Below are positions 236 through 14,349 of a stretch of 14,635 nucleotides of DNA, in pieces. This DNA is from a virus. Taxonomy: Duplodnaviria; Heunggongvirae; Uroviricota; Caudoviricetes. Within the stretch, counting starts at the first letter, position 1. Each line of letters starts with the position of its first letter. Both the position numbers and the translations under genes were made by a program. The stretch is taken from the IMG/VR virus record IMGVR_UViG_2693429762_000010, positions 1-14,635 of that record, one strand, 5' to 3'. The notes below the pieces were generated by a model, which worked only from the letters and a program-made list of their open reading frames with translations, was not told the origin of the DNA and did no database searches.

Positions 236-475
236 AACCGCAGCACGTTCCTGCATACGACGTGTCTGCGGCATAATCCCAATGATTACTCCCTGACAGG
301 ATTTGCAGGCCACTCAATATCAGGTGCAGTTGATGTATCAACACGATTCAACAATACCCGATATTTATTCCATGCCTCCAGCAACGATCTTTCTTCCTCC
401 GTTGCGATTTCCAGATCTACAGCATCCTGCAGTGACGCAATATACTCACTGAATTCCTGGATGTAGAACTGTGTG
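236..475. repeat. direct repeat copy A (3' end of tfa plus downstream stem-loop)
   Basis: About 240 bp aligns by eye with 1284-1524 at roughly 85-90% identity, same orientation. Includes a degenerate copy of the GC-rich hairpin CCGCAGCACG...CGTG(T)CTGCGG. Confidence 0.7.
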
Positions 476-2973: not shown

Positions 2974-4425
2974 TCATGGCATGGCCATGAGCATTTTCAC
3001 GTCCGCATCACCGTCTTCTGACGCCTGTGACACGCCCCCCTGGACCGCAGCCGGTGAATGGTTCGCCATGAAATGTTCAAACAGGGCGGTTGTGGATGCA
3101 GAGACCGGTTCTGCCTTACCTGATCCCGCAGCCAGCACAGCCCGGGCGCTCTCCACGGTCATTCCCGGGCAGGCAGCCAGCTGTTCAGCCTGCGCCTCAG
3201 CCCCTTTTGCCTCATCCAGGGCCATGATCTGATCACGGAGTGATGGTCCGGCATTCGCCTGCGGTGAAGCAGCCAGGATCGGGCGGGCTTTTTCCACCGT
3301 CATCTCCGGCATCGCCGCCAGCGTTACTGCCAGTTGTTCACGACCGTTCGCTTCTTCACACGCCATAATGCGATCGGCTTCACTCTGCGCGGATGCCACC
3401 GGCTGCTGCGGTGCCGCCGCGGCCAGAATCGCCCGGGCCTGTTCAACGCTCATGCCCTGTTGCCCTGCCAGCATCGTGGCAAGCTGTTCACGTCCTTTCG
3501 CTTCCTGGCATGTCAGGATCCCCATCACTCGCTGGTTCTCCTGCACGGCGGCTTCCGTTGCAGTTAATTGCGGCATAGTGCCTCCTCTGACATTACTGTT
3601 CAGCGCCGTGGCCATCACACTGATGGCATCCGACGCATTGATTAATTCATCCGCCAGCCCGGCCTCAATGCCGGACTGACCTTCAAAAACGGCGGCCTCT
3701 GTTCCCGTGACCGCATCCACAGACAACCCGGTATACATCGCCACTTTTTCGGCAAACATCCGGTGCGCCGCATCAATCCGCTGCTGCATATCCTGGCGAA
3801 CCTCTGCCGGCAACGCTTCAAACTGATTGCCATCCACCTTGTGCGCCCCGGCATAAATCAGCGTGATATCCACACCGGCCTGCGCCAGATGACCGGCATA
3901 GCTGACATGGCTCATCATCACGCCAATGGAGCCGATACGGGATGTCTGGGTAACCAGCCGTCGGGAGCAGGCCGACGCCAGCAGCATGGCTGCAGAACAG
4001 GCCGTGTCATTGCACAGTGCCCAGACCGGCTTCTGCTGACGGAGGCGGTAAATCATGTCAGCGCAGTCAAACGCGCCGGCGGCCTGCCCGCCCGGACTGT
4101 CAATGTCCAGCAGTATGCCCCGCACCTGGCTATCTGCCATTGCCTGCTGAAGACAGGCGACAATGCCGTCATAGCCAGTCATTCCGGAAAATGGCCGCAT
4201 CCCCCCCAGCCGGTGCACCAGCGTGCCGCTCACCGGCAGTACCGCAATACCGTTCACCACCCGGTAAACACGGGCCGGTCGTTTACCTCCGGCCATGTAC
4301 TCGTCCGTTTCAGCCAGCATTCCGGGAGCATCAAGCTGTACCTGCTGTTGTGGTACCGAAAGACTTGCTGCCCCCATCTCGCGCCCGAGCGCGCAAAAGA
4401 AAACCCGCGCATAGCAGGGCCGCAT
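2974..4425 (-). CDS. C: lambda gpC-like head maturation protease/scaffold (S49 ClpP-like), natural N-terminus deleted
   Basis: YARVFFCAL…NGIAVLPVSGTL…GILLDIDSPGG…AFDCADMIYR…PVWALCNDTACSAAMLLASACSRRLVTQTSRIGSIGVMM aligns with remembered lambda gpC, with a repeated C-terminal EEA(K/N)GREQLA motif. Homology begins at YARVFF; the first in-frame ATG (4423-4425) lies in out-of-frame portal-derived sequence, so expression is doubtful. Confidence 0.7.
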   Translation of the reverse strand: MRPCYARVFFCALGREMGAASLSVPQQQVQLDAPGMLAETDEYMAGGKRPARVYRVVNGIAVLPVSGTLVHRLGGMRPFSGMTGYDGIVACLQQAMADSQVRGILLDIDSPGGQAAGAFDCADMIYRLRQQKPVWALCNDTACSAAMLLASACSRRLVTQTSRIGSIGVMMSHVSYAGHLAQAGVDITLIYAGAHKVDGNQFEALPAEVRQDMQQRIDAAHRMFAEKVAMYTGLSVDAVTGTEAAVFEGQSGIEAGLADELINASDAISVMATALNSNVRGGTMPQLTATEAAVQENQRVMGILTCQEAKGREQLATMLAGQQGMSVEQARAILAAAAPQQPVASAQSEADRIMACEEANGREQLAVTLAAMPEMTVEKARPILAASPQANAGPSLRDQIMALDEAKGAEAQAEQLAACPGMTVESARAVLAAGSGKAEPVSASTTALFEHFMANHSPAAVQGGVSQASEDGDADVKMLMAMP

Positions 4426-4552
4426 CGGCACTCTGCGCCGGTGGCAACCACTCCGCCATTTGCCCGCCAAATCCTGCGCCGCCCCCGTTGTAGCTGAGAC
4501 TCTCACGAAGCGGAACGCCGTTCACATCAATCAGGACAGGCGTTCGTTTCAT
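4406..4552 (-). pseudogene. B: portal protein B N-terminal fragment (B'), ~49 codons
   Basis: MKRTPVLIDVNGVPLRESLSYNGGGAGFGGQMAEWLPPAQSADAALL matches the lambda gpB N-terminus (…GGGSGFGGQLRSWNPPSESVDAALL…). Sequence then switches to gpC homology in another frame; start overlaps the W stop in the usual ATGA arrangement. Confidence 0.6.
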
Positions 4553-4755
4553 AACCTCACTCCCAGCGGACGACGGCGACGTCGGGTTGTCCCCAGTACC
4601 GACTCCGCATCATTGATCGCCCGGTTAAGCTCATCCAGAGAAGCCGCCGTATATTCAATTCTGCGACCATCTTTCTGGACAGACACCACCCGTTTACCGG
4701 TTAATAAATCAAGGCGCGCCTGACGCAGCGCCTGTAGTTCAGCGACTGTAACCAT
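4549..4755 (-). CDS. W: head-tail joining protein W
   Basis: 68-aa [42 protein letters not shown]… aligns along its length with lambda gpW (…[23 protein letters not shown]…). Confidence 0.85.
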   Translation of the reverse strand: MVTVAELQALRQARLDLLTGKRVVSVQKDGRRIEYTAASLDELNRAINDAESVLGTTRRRRRPLGVRL

Positions 4756-6379
4756 TCACTCCTCCGGACAGCTTCGCTGCCAGTTCTTTAAGGGTTGGCC
4801 GGGTCGTCTCTTCTTCCCGGGATTTTGCCAGTACAGCCAGATCAAGCTGCCAGCGTTGCACGGACACACGTAATGCCGCGTAGGCATACACCAGGCAGTC
4901 CAGCGCTTCGTTACGCCGCTTTTTGTTATCCCACAGCAGACGCATCTTTCCTTTTTCCCACTTCTCCACAAGCTCTTCCGCGACCAGTTGCTGCGCCTCT
5001 GTCTGCGAAAAAATCTCCGGATCATCAGGAAAACGGATGGCATACGACGTGGCTTCATCCGCAGACGTGGGATCGGCTTTCATACGGGCATAGAGAATTT
5101 CTTTTGCGGTGTCCGTCCCCACTTCACACAGATACACGCCCCGCTGATTGCGGGTTTTCGGCATGGTGATCACCGGCTTGCCATAGACAGATGCGCCTTT
5201 TACCGGCAGCACCCGGAAAACACCGTGTTTTTTTGACCTCTGATAGACAATTTCACCATCGATCCCCCCGGTGTCCCAGCAGACACGGGAAATGGTCATT
5301 TCGGTTCCGTCTGCATGGCAGTATTTTTTGTTGATCGCCGCATCCACACGTAACAGCGTCTCTTCCTCATCGGGACGGCCCATAATGATGATTTTATCCA
5401 CCAGAAAAGCTTCCTCTCCCGGTGCCCATCCCCAGACATACATCTCAAAACGGTTTCGCTGCGAGTCAATGCCCGCCGTCAGATAAACCACCCGGGCTGG
5501 CACCGCCGCCGTGTAATGCACGACCTTATCCATCAGTACCTGGTGATCGAGTTTTTCGCCCACGGCCTCTTCCCAGGTCTCGCCCAGCGTGGTGTTCACA
5601 AAGGTTTTCAGGCCGTTGGGATCTTTCAGTGCATCCAGCCAGTCATAGACTATCTGTACCCAGGTGGTGAACGGACTGTACGCCGTCCAGATATGGAACG
5701 TGATGGAGCGCGGCGGCGGAATTTCATTATCCGCGGCGCTGAAAAACGTCAGACCGTCACGGGTCCACATCCCCGTGTTTTCACAGATCCACCGCCCGTT
5801 GCTCTGGTCAAGCTCAGACTGATGGATCACGCAGCCATGATGTTCACAGAGGTAGAAAACGCTTTCGGGGCTGTCCTTCTCCCATTTAAGGCCAAAAGGC
5901 GTGGATTCATCGCCAAATTTCAGATACTGCTCCTCCCCACAGTGTGGGCAGGGCACATAAAAACGCATGAAATGCGCCGACTCGTTGGCCGCTTTTTCGA
6001 TCTGGCAGGTGCCTTTGATTTTAGGCGTCGAGCCGCGAATGGATTTGGGCCATACAGAGCCCTCAATACGTTTATCCCCAAGCAGGGTTGGCGAACCCTC
6101 TTTTTCGACATCCGGTTCGAACGAGGAAAGTTCGTCATAGCAGACCACGTCCACGGATTTTTCACGGTAGTTTTTAGCGGCAGCCCCGCCCAGGCACCAG
6201 AAGCCCACGCCCGATGAAAAACGTTTCAGCGTGAGGGTATTATCACGATGTTTACGCCCAAACCACGGTGCAAGATCGAGTAAAACCGGCACATCCCTGA
6301 TCGTGGGTTCCACATGAGATTTCATAAAATCTTCAGCAGCAGAACCCCTGACTCTGCCAGGCGGTGATGGTCCTGACAT
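4739..6379 (-). CDS. A: terminase large subunit gpA homolog lacking the N-terminal ~90 residues (Nu1'-'A deletion fusion; probably non-functional)
   Basis: [17 protein letters not shown]…[18 protein letters not shown]…[16 protein letters not shown]…[10 protein letters not shown]…[12 protein letters not shown] closely matches lambda gpA from about residue 95 onward. The N-terminal region, including the Walker A segment remembered near residue 80, is absent. In-frame ATGs at 6379 and 6325. Confidence 0.85.
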
Positions 6380-6422
6380 CAACGCCAAAAATATCGGCCA
6401 GTTTTTTCTTATTGACGTTCAT
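6333..6422 (-). pseudogene. nu1: terminase small subunit Nu1 remnant (first ~26 codons only)
   Basis: ATG at 6420-6422 opens [26 protein letters not shown] (lambda Nu1: MEVNKKQLADIFGASIRTIQNWQEQG…), then runs into a stop after 3 more codons where gpA-homologous sequence begins. Confidence 0.6.
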
Positions 6423-6559
6423 ACACTCCCCCGGGAACCAGAAAGGATCTGAAAATGGCGTTTTCTAACAAAAACAGCCTTTGTCAGATCCTTTTATATT
6501 TTTAAAATTCTATTGATAATCAATCAGTTAAAAAGAAGAAGAACGGATCTGATTTTTCC

Positions 6560-6620
6560 CTAAAAATTTTCATAAATAGCGAAAACCCGCGAGGTCGCCG
6601 CCCCGTAACCGGTCGGATCG
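6560..6620 (-). other. cos site (cosN cohesive-end sequence with flanking cosQ/cosB regions)
   Basis: Minus strand reads GGGGCGGCGACCTCGCGGGTTTTCGCTATTTATGAAAATTTT, matching the lambda left end. The 12-nt cohesive-end sequence GGGCGGCGACCT lies at 6592-6603, about 170 bp upstream of the Nu1' start. Confidence 0.8.
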
Positions 6621-6639
6621 CCGGAAAGGACCCACGAAA

Positions 6640-6654
6640 TGATAATGATTATCA
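6640..6654. promoter_or_regulatory. perfect 7-1-7 inverted repeat TGATAATgATTATCA (Fur-box-like)
   Basis: Matches the TGATAATnATTATCA half-site model of the Fur box; about 37 bp from cosN and 155 bp upstream of the RHH-like ORF. Could be a coincidental AT-rich palindrome. Confidence 0.3.
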
Positions 6655-6809
6655 TCTATATAAGGTTTATCACAACATGTGTGTACGCCATCAAACCACG
6701 AGAAATAATCAATTATGACGCAGGTATCGTATTAATTGATCTGCGTCAAATTAACGTAAAAGCAACTTCAGATAATACAAATCAGCAACACTGAATATGG
6801 GGAAACATT

Positions 6810-6995
6810 ATGTCATCAAAGAACAGAACCCGCAGAACAACAACCCGCAACATCCGATTTCCAAACCAGATGATTGAACAAATTAACATCGCTCTTGATC
6901 TGAAAGGTTCAGGAAACTTTTCAGCGTGGGTTATTGAAGCCTGCAGAAGAAGGCTGTCAACAGAGAGTTCGGGTATGAATTACATAATTAAGTAA
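6810..6995 (+). CDS. small predicted ribbon-helix-helix DNA-binding protein
   Basis: 61-aa ORF with GGGGAA upstream. Pattern RNIRFPNQMIEQINIALDLKGSGNFSAWVIEACRRRL fits the beta-strand/helix/turn/helix layout of Arc/MetJ/CopG proteins. Equivalent small ORF remembered at the lambda right end. Confidence 0.55.
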   Translation: MSSKNRTRRTTTRNIRFPNQMIEQINIALDLKGSGNFSAWVIEACRRRLSTESSGMNYIIK

Positions 6996-9559: not shown

Positions 9560-10366
9560 TTATATACGCCCTTTCAGATAAGTCATCCCCGGCTGCATCC
9601 AGTCAACAGGTGCTTTCTTAAAGGGCGTATTATCAAAATCACGCAGAAGAGCCTCCAGCACAACTGCATCATTGTCAGCACCACTGGCCATCATTTCAAT
9701 CTCAGCTGCTACCTGCAGATATCCCATGCAACGACCAATGCGCTTCATCAGCCCCTGCTTTTTATTGTTCTTCAGGTAATCAATGGCAAATTCAATGAGC
9801 GCCTCACTATGCTGGTGCGATGGCGGTGTTAATTTCCCATTTTCTGAGATGGTTATTTTCCCGCCATCTCCGTATACAACAAAGGATGGCCGGTTACACT
9901 CCCATTCCTGATCTTTATCAGGTGCAGACGCAATAAAATAACGTTTATTTCCTTCCTCTCCGGCACTTTTAACCGTAATGGAGTACTCAGACTGCAGACA
10001 AGACGCCTCTTTTTCTGACCGCAGTGTTGACGGCGGCATCTTCAGAGAACCAGTAATTCTTCCCGGTAGCTTTCCTTTGTAGGTTATCAACACATCCTGC
10101 GCCTCTAAAATTATGGGGCGCTTTTCCGGCAACGGTTCGTTCCCTTCACATAACCCGGCAGCAACATCCATGAAAAACTGCTTCGCCTGCTTTTTCGCCT
10201 CAGCTTCGTAAAACTCCAGCGTGGCACCTTCAGTACGGTCAAGACTAATCGCCACATTTGGCAACAACAGTGACGGATACCCACCAATTTCCAGTACCAC
10301 AGTAACAGTAATCTTATCCGGGTAATTATTTATCCCTTTAACAACCAGTTCGTATTTTTTCTTCAT
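9560..10366 (-). CDS. hypothetical protein (268 aa) inserted between holin and endolysin
   Basis: Long ORF starting 4 nt after the holin stop, with GGGGAGAG SD inside the holin 3' end (translational coupling). Soluble, Lys/Glu-rich, no TM segments, no Walker or other catalytic motif recognised. Confidence 0.7.
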   Translation of the reverse strand: MKKKYELVVKGINNYPDKITVTVVLEIGGYPSLLLPNVAISLDRTEGATLEFYEAEAKKQAKQFFMDVAAGLCEGNEPLPEKRPIILEAQDVLITYKGKLPGRITGSLKMPPSTLRSEKEASCLQSEYSITVKSAGEEGNKRYFIASAPDKDQEWECNRPSFVVYGDGGKITISENGKLTPPSHQHSEALIEFAIDYLKNNKKQGLMKRIGRCMGYLQVAAEIEMMASGADNDAVVLEALLRDFDNTPFKKAPVDWMQPGMTYLKGRI

Positions 10367-10735: not shown

Positions 10736-12589
10736 TTATGATGATGCTGGTGCATTTATCTCCAGCACCAGACTTTCTATCTCAACGCCATACGCTGCAT
10801 TTTTGGTAATATCCGTCAGCGTCAGCGCATTCAGCCCCAGTGTCAGACTGTCTTTTATGACCTGGAATGCCGGGCCAGCCACTCCATTCAGTTTCGGAGT
10901 AACCGTGGCACTGCCGGCGGTGAACACCAGCTCCAGCGTCTGCCAGTCGTTACTGTAATTCCCGAACTCGCCCAACTTTGTGTTTCCTGCTTTCCTGTGA
11001 TGCATCAGATTCAGTTTGCCGTCTGTGGTCTGGGTGAAGAACGACATCAGGAACGGGTTACCAGTCCCGGTCATCGCCACGACGTCAGGTAACGCTACAT
11101 CGGTATACAGATAAATTCCCAGACCGAACTGGTTGTTGGTCAGTGCGCCTGACAGTCGAAACTTACAGCTCAGTCTGCCACCCCGTGTCAGCAGGGAGAC
11201 TGCGTCATCCACCGGGCGCGTCAGGGACCAGGCTTTATTGCTCTGCTTGGCGATCTTAAATACACCACCCGACAACTGAATTCCGCCGTCCTTAATGGTC
11301 CAGCCCTGCGCAGCAGCCTCTCCGGCTGTCGGCAGCAGGGAGATTGTGCGAACGGACGTATCTGCAGACGGACCCGATGGCGTGTCGCCGCCGGGCGAGG
11401 GTTTGATTTCCGGTGCCTTACCACTGATGAAGGCTGAGGTGCGCCCGGCTACGTTCAGAATAGCAGTTGCCATACGATCGGGAATAATGCCACGACGCGC
11501 CCATGAGCTGAAATGCGTCGGGCGATTTGATGATACCCAGTTTTTGTTCGTTCGGGATGCCGAACCGTAATAACCAGACCCGGCAATATCAGGATCTTCT
11601 GACGGGTTGTTTGTCGGTGTATTAACTCCGCTACCATCGGTCATAAAGGGAACAAAATAAATCTGCTGGGATTCTTTACCTTTATATGCACCATATACCA
11701 CTTCATATTGCGTACCGTGTTCTTGTTTCCACGCGTATGTCGTGTCGCCACAAATCCAGGGGACTGATGCCGGACTTCCACCGTGACACTGCGCTGCCAG
11801 CCCGGCAAGGTCAGCACGGAACTGCTGTACCATTGCAAGAAATGCTGCTGGCTGCTGGGCGTAACTGGCATTCGTCATATCGAATTCCCCCTGCATCCAG
11901 CATATCGCCAGCAAAACGTTTTTCGGGTTTTTCTGCAATGCTGCCTTCGTGCGGAAAAGCAGATCCTGATATAACGGCTTACCCACTCCCCAGCGAGCCG
12001 AATCCTGACTGGCCCCCGTGGACTCGCTGAATGTCCCCTCCGTGCCCTGGGTGAATGCCGAACCACCACGACAGCATGGTACCAGCAGGATCCCCGCATT
12101 ATTAGGGATATACGGAAGCAGTTTTTTGGCAATATGTAAGCCCTGGCCGACACAGCCGTACTGCCCTTTGCTCAGGTCAGCCCGGGGATGGTTAATCGTA
12201 CTCATATCCTGAACATCATGCAGACAATGGTCAGCAGGAATGATGTCGTTAAATACGCATACTTCACCACCGGGAGTCACTGTGTTACGACGGGCCAGTT
12301 GCTTAATGCGCGGATGGGGCGCATCGTATGAATCCGGAAGCGGAAGCCCTTCACCGTAAGCCATGGCATTGGACTGCCCGGCCAGTACGATGACGTAGTA
12401 CCACTCCGGCTCAGTTGCACCACTGACGACCACATCACCTTCTGCTGCAATCGCCTGCATCAGGGTATAAGGGGTTATGGCCACCGGACTACCAAACGGC
12501 TGCCAGCCCTCTTTCAGTTTATGTGTCAGCTTTTCCGCAAGATCTGACGGCGACGCCGCCCTGACAACATCATAGTGTTTAAATGCCAT
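10736..12589 (-). CDS. nanS: prophage sialate O-acetylesterase NanS-p (DUF1737 N-terminal domain plus SGNH/SASA esterase)
   Basis: 617-622 aa. Starts [22 protein letters not shown]…; esterase block [13 protein letters not shown] (GQSN nucleophile motif). Matches remembered NanS-p proteins found between stx/tRNAs and the lysis genes in EHEC prophages. Start placed at the second ATG (GGAAAG SD); the first ATG at 12604 lacks an SD. Confidence 0.88.
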
Positions 12590-12849
12590 GGTTCTTTCCA
12601 CCATCTGAAAAATGATTCTTTAAAATACCTGACATGTAATACAGAAAAAACACAAAACCATACCTTAATTAAAAACCTCATCATCAAGCAGATATGCATG
12701 GATAAACTACAAGACGAGATATAAACCACCCTGCATTTAAATAAACAATAAACAACATCAGAAAAATAATTCTGCTCTATGGTTTACAATCAAAAATATC
12801 ATTTATACTTTTCAGAACATCACCAGCAAGGCATAAACAAGGAAACTAA

Positions 12850-13185
12850 ATGAAGTGGATTGTGATTGATACAGTTATCCAGCCATCATGCGGAATATCT
12901 TTTTCAGTCATATGGAGTAAAATAAAATTAATAATCTGGTATCAATCGGATGCTTTCTTACCTCCTGAAAGTATATTTACACTGACTCACACAGGCATCA
13001 TGCTCAATAACAAAGTGCTGCCTGTAACCATTTACAACGTAGTACCATTCAATAAAACATTCTGGAATTTAATCAAAAACAGCCAGGAATGCCCTACAAA
13101 TACAGATAACGTATTGAATGAATGCTTTAATAACCGTTGCACTCTGCAAATATGTCCTTATGGGCTAAAACAACAAAGTCCATAA
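12850..13185 (+). CDS. hypothetical protein (111 aa), AT-rich cargo gene
   Basis: Uninterrupted ORF in AT-rich DNA with strong SD AAGGAAA 7 nt upstream. Hydrophobic N-terminus and a C-terminal four-Cys cluster (C-x9-C-x4-C-x4-C). 6 of 13 Ile codons are ATA. No family recognised. Confidence 0.55.
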
Positions 13186-14096: not shown

Positions 14097-14173
14097 TGGC
14101 GCGCTGTACTGGATTCGAACCAGTGACCGATTGCTTAGAAGGCAATTGCTCTGTCCGGCTGAGCTAACAACGC
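14097..14173 (-). tRNA. tRNA-Arg (anticodon UCU)
   Basis: Minus strand GCGTTGTTAGCTCAGCCGGACAGAGCAATTGCCTTCTAAGCAATCGGTCACTGGTTCGAATCCAGTACAGCGCGCCA: 7-bp acceptor stem, D-arm, anticodon loop CUUCUAA, T-loop GGTTCGAATCC, encoded CCA. Resembles argU-type and Stx-phage arg tRNAs. Confidence 0.9.
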
Positions 14174-14273
14174 TGAATACCGATAATGGACCGCCATCGG
14201 GGACCCGCCCCCGCACCAACAACCCTGTTATCGTGTCGTCTGCTCTTCCTGATAAGCTAATGGCGGTTTGTGA

Positions 14274-14349
14274 TGGTGGCCCTTGCTGGATTTGAACCAG
14301 CGACCTGGCGATTATGAGTCGCTCGCTCTCACCACTGAGCTAAAGGGCC
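14274..14349 (-). tRNA. tRNA-Ile2 (anticodon CAU, ileX/ileZ-like, reads AUA after lysidine modification)
   Basis: Minus strand GGCCCTTTAGCTCAGTGGTGAGAGCGAGCGACTCATAATCGCCAGGTCGCTGGTTCAAATCCAGCAAGGGCCACCA: full cloverleaf, anticodon CAU. Much closer to remembered E. coli ileX than to elongator tRNA-Met. Confidence 0.88.

What the first reader, a model, noticed from the sequence alone, without database searches (positions are those of the whole stretch)
6422..6660. Apparently intact cos site retained next to a crippled terminase
The 12-nt lambda cohesive-end sequence and flanking left-end sequence are preserved almost exactly, while the cognate terminase is defective (Nu1 reduced to a stub, gpA N-terminally truncated). 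A cos site without its own terminase could still be cut and packaged in trans by a co-resident or superinfecting lambda-type phage, mobilising the adjacent lysis and cargo genes by cos-dependent transduction.
Basis: partly seen in the sequence, partly recalled or inferred. Interest (0 to 1): 0.45.

Follow-up and report, generated by a model that had tools for sequence, protein, structure and literature searches.

The report
Intact cos site beside deleted terminase
A decayed lambda-like prophage of E. coli still has a complete DNA-packaging start site (cos) although a recent 765-bp deletion destroyed its own packaging enzyme; this is an ordinary, already documented state of defective prophages, and the site could not by itself move the neighbouring lysis genes.

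Summary
A complete lambda-family cos lies on the minus strand at 6439-6633. cosQ and the 16-bp cosN are identical to lambda, as are left-end bp 1-41. A four-part cosB follows (R3, IHF site I1, inverted R2, R1). A 765-bp deletion fuses nu1 codon 26 to gpA codon ~107. It leaves a 29-aa Nu1 stub and a gpA without its Walker A motif. cosB is not lambda's: its R core TCAGATCCKTT matches Salmonella phage Gifsy-1, not lambda or phage 21. The 278-bp cos stretch is 100% identical to E. coli prophages with intact terminase, so it is probably cleavable. The deletion allele is rare (5 contigs; absent from 5,426 complete E. coli genomes), so an undecayed cos needs no selective explanation. Trans-packaging of a nu1-defective prophage has a published precedent (O157 Sakai Sp4). 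But initiation would need a helper with Gifsy-1-type TerS. Packaging runs from cosN through cosB, away from the lysis and cargo genes and towards trp. Lambda-type terminases also need a second cos to finish. The lysis side could be packaged only if this cos served as the terminating site, or after excision and replication. Ordinary; low interest.

The parts
6627..6633 (-). cosQ (GGGTCCT), the packaging-termination element, 24-30 nt upstream of the cohesive end
   Evidence: 7/7 identical to lambda 48473-48479 in the alignment; its role is described in PMC4669245.
6590..6605 (-). cosN: the 12-nt cohesive-end sequence (6592-6603) plus the 2-bp flanks at each nick
   Evidence: Exact 12-mer; 16/16 identical to lambda and to phage 21.
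6555..6591 (-). I2 spacer between cosN and cosB (left-end bp 13-49)
   Evidence: bp 13-41 are identical to lambda, with 5 changes in bp 42-48. The cosN-to-R3 spacing equals that of lambda, 21 and Gifsy-1. I2 is needed for termination (PMC4669245).
6539..6554 (-). cosB R3 (left-end bp 50-65, AATCAGATCCGTTCTT), presumed main TerS binding site
   Evidence: Same position as the annotated R3 of phage 21 and R3 of lambda (PMC9026076). Core TCAGATCCGTT, identical to the Gifsy-1 core.
6518..6530 (+). cosB I1, an IHF-binding consensus between R3 and R2
   Evidence: AATCAATCAGTTA is a perfect match to WATCAANNNNTTR. It lies at the same left-end position (bp 74-86) as the annotated I1 of phage 21.
6482..6497 (+). 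cosB R2, inverted relative to R3 and R1
   Evidence: Core TCAGATCCTTT on the + strand at 6484-6494; its position corresponds to phage 21 R2, bp 107-122.
6439..6454 (-). cosB R1
   Evidence: Core TCAGATCCTTT at 6442-6452; its position corresponds to phage 21 R1, bp 150-166.
6333..6422 (-). nu1 (terminase small subunit) stub: 26 native codons, then FCC and a stop
   Evidence: Translation. Identical to TW14425 nu1 for 80 nt from the ATG, where the match ends.
6343..6344 (-). Junction of the 765-bp deletion, with 2-bp TT microhomology
   Evidence: The junction is absent from 5,426 complete E. coli genomes and from the species-representative genomes. It is present in 4 draft assemblies.
4739..6342 (-). 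gpA (terminase large subunit) remnant, lacking about residues 1-107 (TerS-binding N-terminus and Walker A); nuclease domain retained
   Evidence: Pfam GpA_ATPase positions 67-247 only, plus GpA_nuclease; Walker A KSARVGYT at residues 76-83 of the intact relative falls within the deleted part.
4331..4552 (-). Portal gene stub (73 aa) left by a second deletion of ~1.5 kb that runs into the S49 prohead protease gene (junction at about 4406-4420)
   Evidence: TW14425 9761-11254 and H3 23204-24704 are missing; gene calls in L007.
6810..6995 (+). YlcI/YnfO-family (DUF3950) gene on the cosQ side, a usual neighbour of cos in these prophages
   Evidence: RefSeq annotation of the identical region in TW14425; Pfam DUF3950 in L007.

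Best explanation
This is a structurally complete lambda-family cos site (cosQ, cosN, I2, and cosB made of R3-I1-R2-R1). It survives as a passive relic in a multiply deleted lambdoid prophage integrated at ompW, next to the trp operon. A recent 765-bp deletion removed the 3' part of nu1 and the 5' part of A, starting 94 bp beyond R1, so the element cannot cut or package its own DNA. The cos has not decayed because too little time has passed, not because it is demonstrably maintained. By inference from the lambda/21/N15 system, it remains a competent substrate in trans in two ways. (a) It could act as an initiation site, but only for a terminase whose small subunit has the matching Gifsy-1-type recognition helix (RT[IV]TAWQS). 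The DNA taken in would be the cosB side: prophage remnant, then yciE-yciG, trp and beyond. (b) It could act as a termination site for any lambda-like terminase arriving from an upstream cos. That is the only route by which the lysis and cargo side would be encapsidated. With a single chromosomal cos and no excision or replication, no mature transducing particle is expected.
For: Anatomy and spacing match lambda, 21 and Gifsy-1. The cos is 100% identical over 278 bp to prophages with intact nu1 and A, and 207 of 5,426 complete E. coli genomes hold this cos type. Window versus TW14425 shows 12 mismatches in 1,878 bp of flank and none in the cos. About 1.8 would be expected in 278 bp (Poisson P of zero ~0.17), so there is no sign of either decay or special constraint. 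The deletion allele is rare and clonal: the exact truncated protein is on 5 contigs only, and the junction is in none of the complete genomes. The discriminating positions (R3 bp 56/59 = A/C; TerS residues 20/24 = T/S) match Gifsy-1 and differ from lambda (T/C; Q/E) and phage 21 (G/G; E/S). The rules for initiation, termination and direction come from PMC4669245. The need for a second cos comes from PMC6687093 and PMC12829572. Further deletions remove portal through protease and head-decoration gene through tail fibre, so the element is deeply defective.
Against: No functional test was possible. Cleavability is inferred from identity with cos sites that sit beside intact terminase genes, and many of those prophages are themselves defective (TW14425 lacks capsid through tail). 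No isolated E. coli phage in the phage collection carries this exact cosB; only Gifsy-1 of Salmonella is similar, at 73% over cosB. The same junction occurs in contigs with different flanks (L008, L010), so the allele has seen some recombination or rearrangement and is not extremely young. Whether the element can still excise and replicate is unknown, because the window and its contig end before the early region.
Confidence: 0.75

Rival explanations
1. One reading: a co-resident or superinfecting lambda-type phage cuts this cos and packages the adjacent lysis and cargo genes, giving cos-dependent transduction of that segment.
For: The cos is intact. O157 Sakai Sp4, with nu1 disrupted, is packaged, probably by Sp14 terminase acting on a near-identical cos (PMC2669165). 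Termination at a downstream cos is not cosB-specific. So if the element excises and replicates, or a cos lies 38-51 kb upstream (size range from my own knowledge of lambda), the lysis side would be packaged.
Against: Initiation at this cos packages the opposite side. cosB specificity is of the Gifsy-1 type, not lambda's. A single cos gives no terminal cut. Sp4 was excised and amplified before packaging, and nothing here shows that this remnant can do so. Its left arm is reduced to about 5 kb.
Confidence: 0.12
2. Mobilisation by recombination rather than by packaging in place. A superinfecting or co-resident lambdoid phage recombines with the homologous late region and picks up the lysis genes, cos and cosB as a cassette. 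This would resemble the lambda qsr' and lambda qin hybrids rescued from the DLP12 and Qin cryptic prophages of K-12 (recalled from memory, not checked here).
For: The region is strongly mosaic. E. coli H3 carries a prophage at the same ompW site that is 99% identical from window 7609 to 6554. It then switches, exactly at left-end bp ~50, to a phage-21-type cosB and TerS. The same nu1-A junction also sits between different flanks in L008 and L010. Parts of this 278-bp stretch match DNA in 4,239 of 5,426 complete E. coli genomes, mostly over its cosQ-cosN half, so homology for recombination is plentiful.
Against: A recombinant that took cosB together with the deleted nu1-A would be non-viable. 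Only crossovers between cosB and the deletion (about 90-170 bp) or on the cosQ side would yield viable phage, and a new cosB with an unmatched TerS would not package. Nothing here shows that this happened for this copy.
Confidence: 0.25
3. The cos is not functional despite its appearance, because a requirement outside the recognised subsites was lost with the deletion. One example would be an accessory TerS site inside nu1, like rR2 of phage N15.
For: N15 has an accessory inverted R sequence within its TerS gene, about 200 bp from R3 (PMC4669245). The deletion here begins about 210 bp from R3.
Against: rR2 is not critical even in N15. This cos has the complex three-R architecture, which needs no such site in lambda or 21. 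TCAGATCCKTT occurs only at the three cosB positions in the window. The deleted 765 bp of the intact relative was not scanned for a further copy.
Confidence: 0.05

Closest known systems
cos of bacteriophage lambda (cosQ-cosN-I2-cosB with R3-I1-R2-R1)
   Same: cosQ 7/7, cosN 16/16 and left-end bp 1-41 are identical. R3 sits at bp 50-65. There are three R sequences with R2 inverted, an IHF site between R3 and R2, and the TerS gene starts about 180-190 bp from the end (PMC9026076).
   Different: R core CAGATCC instead of CGTTTCC, with R3 bp 51, 52 and 54-56 changed, including the discriminating bp 56. The cognate TerS recognition helix is RTITAWQS rather than RTIQNWQE, and TerS is 56% identical overall.
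cos of Salmonella phage Gifsy-1
   Same: Same R core (CAGATCCGTTCTTCTT in R3, CAGATCCTTT in R2 and R1) at the same positions. The TerS N-terminus is 35/40 identical, with recognition helix RTVTAWQS and the same wing start.
   Different: The Gifsy-1 cohesive end differs from lambda at bp 8, 9 and 11 (PMC4669245), whereas this one is lambda-identical. The I1 region and the spacers differ, with 73% identity over cosB.
cos of phage 21, and the K-12-style cryptic prophages with Nu1 homologues
   Same: Closest isolated E. coli phage TerS (82% identical). Identical cosQ and cosN and the same annotated R3-I1-R2-R1 layout. A 21-type module occupies the same ompW-site prophage in E. coli H3.
   Different: The 21 R core is C(G/A)TGTCGG, with bp 56/59 = G/G and TerS helix RTIERWQS. 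Lambda and 21 do not cross-package, so a third specificity is expected here.
O157 Sakai prophage Sp4 (nu1 disrupted by an IS, packaged in trans, probably by Sp14 terminase)
   Same: A lambdoid prophage with an inactivated terminase small-subunit gene and a retained cos; the published proposal is trans-packaging by a co-resident prophage with a near-identical cos (PMC2669165).
   Different: Sp4 is excised and amplified, through regional replication of Sp5, before packaging. Here both terminase genes are hit by a single deletion, most head and tail genes are gone, and neither excision nor a matching co-resident terminase could be examined.
cos sites of Gram-negative PICIs (EcCICFT073-type islands with Rpp)
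   Same: A chromosomal element without its own terminase that carries a lambda-like cosN and depends on a helper's TerL (PMC9026076).
   Different: PICIs have an rpp gene starting about 100 bp from the end and a single proposed R3, and they redirect the helper TerS. Here there is a nu1 stub, a complex cosB, and phage lysis and head gene remnants, so this is a decayed prophage rather than a satellite.

Membership tests
lambda-like cos site (12-nt 5' cohesive ends, complex cosB) | 12-bp cohesive-end sequence with strong identity to lambda, and conserved CG at both nick positions | tested here: met
   12/12, and 16/16 with flanks.
lambda-like cos site (12-nt 5' cohesive ends, complex cosB) | 7-bp cosQ upstream of cosN | tested here: met
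   GGGTCCT at -30 to -24 (window 6627-6633), identical to lambda.
lambda-like cos site (12-nt 5' cohesive ends, complex cosB) | Three R sequences in the order R3-I1-R2-R1, with R2 inverted and R3 at about bp 50-65 | tested here: met
   TCAGATCCKTT three times in orientation -,+,-, chance expectation 0.01; positions match the annotated phage 21 sites.
lambda-like cos site (12-nt 5' cohesive ends, complex cosB) | IHF site between R3 and R2 | tested here: met
   Perfect WATCAANNNNTTR at 6518-6530. This is a consensus match only; binding was not tested.
lambda-like cos site (12-nt 5' cohesive ends, complex cosB) | Staggered nicking by a cognate terminase that produces cohesive ends | not testable with these tools
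   Needs an in vitro cos-cleavage assay, or end-mapping of virion DNA.
lambda packaging specificity (cosB-lambda / TerS-lambda) | R3 bp 56 = T and bp 59 = C, R core CGTTTCC; cognate TerS with Q20 and E24 | tested here: not met
   bp 56 = A and core CAGATCC; the TerS of intact relatives has T20 and S24 (criteria from PMC4669245, and PMC9026076).
phage 21 packaging specificity | R3 bp 56/59 = G/G, R core CRTGTCGG; TerS with E20 and S24 | tested here: not met
   bp 56/59 = A/C; TerS T20 and S24.
Gifsy-1-type cosB | R core CAGATCC(G/T)TT in all three R sequences; TerS helix RT[IV]TAWQS | tested here: met
   Shared packaging specificity is inferred, not tested; cosN differs from that of Gifsy-1.
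Defective prophage packaged in trans (Sp4-type) | Own terminase inactivated while the cos is retained | tested here: met
Defective prophage packaged in trans (Sp4-type) | A co-resident prophage with a near-identical cos and an intact terminase; excision or amplification of the defective element | not testable with these tools
   The source genome is available only as short stretches of draft contigs (L007-L010), and the early region and integrase lie outside the window.
PICI (phage-inducible chromosomal island) cos | An rpp gene directly after cos, island-type gene content, no phage lysis or head genes | tested here: not met
   A nu1 stub follows cos. Holin, lysozyme, Rz, gpA, W, protease and tail-fibre remnants flank it.

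The most novel reading that the evidence does not exclude
The relic cos might work as a fixed launch point for helper-driven, one-directional packaging of the host chromosome. A co-resident or infecting phage with Gifsy-1-type TerS would cut here and fill heads with the yciE-trp side (trpA is 8.8 kb from cosN). That would be a cos-phage counterpart of lateral transduction starting from a dead prophage, and it would need some non-canonical terminal cut. A second, even less supported reading is that the orphan cos and the ATPase-less gpA fragment (nuclease and C-terminal part retained) act as a decoy or dominant-negative against incoming phages of the same packaging specificity.
Probability: 0.05. 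Interest if true: 0.5.

Novelty: new member of a known kind. Interest (0 to 1): 0.15.

Why it matters
The finding matters little on its own. It is one more defective lambdoid prophage that keeps its cos after losing its terminase, a state already described and shown to allow trans-packaging in O157 Sakai. Two points are modestly useful. First, E. coli prophages carry a third cosB/TerS specificity module (Gifsy-1-type R sequences joined to a lambda-identical cosQ-cosN). It is exchanged as a unit with the phage-21-type module at a boundary right at R3. This bears on which prophages can help or parasitise one another. Second, the geometry (cos pointing at the trp operon, lysis genes behind it) shows why the orientation of cos and the need for a second cos must be considered before proposing cos-dependent mobilisation.

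Tried and rejected
(1) I looked for the deletion junction in 5,426 complete E. coli genomes and in the species-representative genome collection and found none. This raised the possibility of an artificial sequence. I rejected it after an exact-protein look-up found the same junction in four NCBI draft assemblies, one of them 99.986% identical to the whole window.
(2) I tried E. coli TW14425 as a proxy for the downstream chromosome, to look for a second cos. Its prophage sits at a different site (potB/potC side), so it says nothing about the window's locus.
(3) A paper search for 'docL' (single-cos lambda particles of the 1970s literature) returned only unrelated papers. That precedent therefore rests on my memory and is not used as evidence.
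(4) I looked for an isolated E. coli phage with this cosB in the phage collection. Lambda-like phages match only cosQ through R3, at about 82%. Only Gifsy-1 spans cosB, at 73%.
(5) I considered selection maintaining the cos. Zero changes in 278 bp against about 1.8 expected is not significant, so this was dropped.
(6) I considered a PICI satellite and rejected it on gene content.
(7) I did not use the large protein searches, structure prediction or RNA tools, because nothing in the question depended on them.

Full report
**What is in the sequence.** Phage genes in this window run on the minus strand, so lambda coordinates rise as window coordinates fall. The cohesive-end 12-mer GGGCGGCGACCT occurs once, at 6592-6603. 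I aligned the region with circularised lambda (right end L003 joined to left end L001) and with a prophage of E. coli TW14425 (L002).
- cosQ (GGGTCCT) is intact at 6627-6633.
- There are two substitutions between cosQ and cosN.
- cosN with its 2-bp flanks is 16/16 identical to lambda.
- Left-end bp 1-41 are identical to lambda.
- From bp 42 onward the sequence departs from lambda: 81% identity over bp 1-86, and lower beyond.

**cosB is complete but not lambda's.** The 11-mer TCAGATCCKTT occurs exactly three times in 14.6 kb, all within cosB. The orientations are minus, plus, minus. Chance expectation is 0.01, and none of 200 shuffles reached three. The three copies lie at left-end bp ~52-62, ~110-120 and ~152-162. 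These correspond to the annotated R3, R2 and R1 of phage 21 and to R3 of lambda at bp 50-65 (PMC9026076). Between R3 and R2, at 6518-6530, is a perfect IHF consensus, AATCAATCAGTTA. It sits where phage 21's I1 is annotated. The R3-I1-R2(inverted)-R1 architecture and the critical cosN-to-R3 spacing are therefore both preserved.

**Which packaging specificity.** The table compares the four systems.

| System | R core | R3 bp 56/59 | TerS residues 17-24 | TerS residues 20/24 |
|---|---|---|---|---|
| lambda | CGTTTCC | T/C | RTIQNWQE | Q/E |
| phage 21 | C(G/A)TGTCGG | G/G | RTIERWQS | E/S |
| Gifsy-1 | CAGATCC | A/C | RTVTAWQS | T/S |
| this window (TerS read from the intact relative TW14425) | CAGATCC | A/C | RTITAWQS | T/S |

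R3 bp 56 and 59, and TerS residues 20 and 24, are the positions reported to discriminate lambda from 21 (PMC4669245). At all of them this system matches Gifsy-1 and differs from lambda and 21. The first 26 residues of the window's Nu1 stub are identical to the intact relative. The intact relative's TerS is 56% identical to lambda Nu1, 82% to phage 21 gp1 and 81% to the Gifsy-1 TerS. This is therefore a lambda-identical cosQ-cosN joined to a Gifsy-1-type cosB and TerS DNA-binding module. Lambda and 21 terminases do not package each other's DNA (PMC4669245), so lambda itself is not expected to initiate here. That expectation is inferred, not tested.

**The terminase defect.** Against TW14425, which has an intact 182-aa TerS and a 642-aa TerL, the window lacks 765 bp. 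The junction is at 6343/6344 and has a 2-bp TT microhomology.
- The Nu1 frame gives 26 native residues, then FCC and a stop.
- The gpA remnant begins at about residue 107. It lacks the Walker A motif KSARVGY(S/T) at residues 76-83, which is present in both lambda gpA and the intact relative.
- Pfam GpA_ATPase matches only profile positions 67-247 of 247, while the nuclease domain is complete.
- The deletion starts 94 bp beyond R1, so it does not touch any recognised cos subsite.

**Is the sequence natural, and how old is the deletion?** The junction is absent from all 5,426 complete E. coli genomes. No complete genome holds 80% or more of the window, and the species-representative genomes lack the junction. 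An exact-protein look-up of the truncated gpA found it on five contigs in four NCBI draft assemblies. One of these (GCA_001283665.1, L007) is 99.986% identical to the whole window, and all carry the same junction. The allele is therefore natural, rare and clonal.

The 278-bp cos stretch is 100% identical to prophages with intact terminase, namely TW14425 and strain 266917_2. Some 207 complete genomes carry this cos type. In the flank shared with TW14425 there are 12 differences in 1,878 bp and none in the cos. About 1.8 would be expected in 278 bp, and zero is not a significant departure (Poisson P ~0.17). The intact state of the cos is what a recent deletion would leave, and it needs no selective explanation.

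**Context.** The element is a lambdoid prophage integrated in ompW. Next to it lie yciE, yciF, yciG and trpABCDE (L007; L012). Two more deletions were found by comparison with the more complete prophage at the same site in E. coli H3. One removes portal through protease (~1.5 kb). The other removes the head-decoration gene through the tail fibre (~7.6 kb). From cosN the remaining left arm is only about 5 kb, and trpA lies 8.8 kb from cosN. The lysis cassette lies on the cosQ side, at coordinates above 6633. It comprises holin, a DUF1327 protein, lysozyme and Rz. Further along that side are the SASA/NanS-type esterase, the IraM-like gene and the tRNAs.

**How it most likely works.** The established rules for lambda-like phages are as follows.
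- Initiation needs cosN and cosB.
- After nicking, terminase stays on the cosB-bearing end and translocates that DNA.
- Termination needs cosQ, cosN and I2 at a downstream cos, and it is not cosB-specific (PMC4669245).
- cos-type terminases need the second cos to cut. Uncut protruding DNA prevents tail attachment, and cos phages are stated not to perform lateral transduction (PMC6687093, PMC12829572).

Applied here, a helper with matching TerS could nick this cos. It would then pump in the gpA remnant, W, tail-fibre remnants and the trp side, not the lysis and cargo genes. No second cos lies in the 11.8 kb held downstream. The lysis side would be encapsidated only if this cos served as the terminating cos for packaging that began upstream, or if the element excised and formed concatemers of packageable length. 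The window cannot show either. These mechanistic steps are inferences from family knowledge; only the anatomy is shown directly.

**Comparison with what is known.** The closest functional precedent is prophage Sp4 of O157 Sakai. Its nu1 is disrupted by an IS, yet its DNA is packaged, probably by the Sp14 terminase acting on a near-identical cos. That happened after excision and amplification (PMC2669165). The site meets every sequence criterion of a complex lambda-like cos. It fails the criteria for lambda and for 21 specificity and meets those of the Gifsy-1-type cosB. It is not a PICI, because there is no rpp gene and phage lysis and head remnants are present.

**Verdict.** Action in trans is plausible and has precedent. 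The helper range, the direction of packaging and the need for a second cos all argue against the proposed mobilisation of the adjacent lysis and cargo genes. I rate it a new member of a known kind, with low interest (0.15).

Noticed in passing
window 6554 (left-end bp ~50); L012 20242-20450: E. coli H3 carries a prophage at the same ompW site that is 99% identical to the window from 7609 down to 6554. It then switches, exactly at the start of R3, to a phage-21-type cosB and TerS. So cosB and the TerS DNA-binding end appear to be exchanged as one module while cosQ-cosN-I2 stays constant.
   Followed up: partly
L008 (GCA_001283785.1) and L010 (GCA_001285345.1) versus window 4597 and 6964: The identical nu1-A deletion junction sits between different flanks. 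In L008 the match ends inside gene W and continues into a gpJ C-terminal fragment, Lom, tail fibre and an NleB/SseK-type effector gene. In L010 the lysis side is only 87-94% identical. This points to later rearrangement or recombination, or to contig mis-joins.
   Followed up: partly
window 4406-4420 and about 2845: There are two further deletions in the morphogenesis module. One removes portal through prohead protease (~1.5 kb, leaving a 73-aa portal stub at 4331-4552). The other removes the head-decoration gene through the tail fibre (~7.6 kb relative to E. coli H3).
   Followed up: partly
window 236-451 and 1286-1500: A ~216-bp direct repeat (89% identical) made of tail-fibre-assembly gene fragments flanks a class I SAM-dependent methyltransferase gene on the opposite strand (612-1280). 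The gene looks like an insertion or shuffling within the tail-fibre region.
   Followed up: no
window 9560-10366 (- strand): The gene after the holin encodes a 268-aa DUF1327 protein. The corresponding gene in TW14425 and H3 is a 114-aa YdfR-family protein, and this part of the lysis cassette is not matched in those relatives.
   Followed up: no
window 14097-14349 (- strand): ARAGORN finds two tRNA genes here, CAT (called Met) and Arg-TCT. The related prophages are annotated with three at this place (Ile, Arg, Arg), so the middle one may be degenerate or lost.
   Followed up: no
window 10736-12604 and 12850-13185: Typical lambdoid cargo lies upstream of the lysis genes: a SASA-family (NanS-type) carbohydrate esterase, and an IraM/PmrD-family anti-adaptor-like gene on the opposite strand.
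   Followed up: no
L006 (KU052038.1, phage SerU-LTIIb) 235-920: This LT-IIb enterotoxin prophage fragment also has a broken terminase region. A 'NU1-like' 72-aa ORF and a 139-aa TerS fragment (82% identical to the relative's TerS) are followed directly by a side tail-fibre gene. No GGGCGG, the start of the cosN 12-mer, was found on the scanned (+) strand of the stretch fetched.
   Followed up: no
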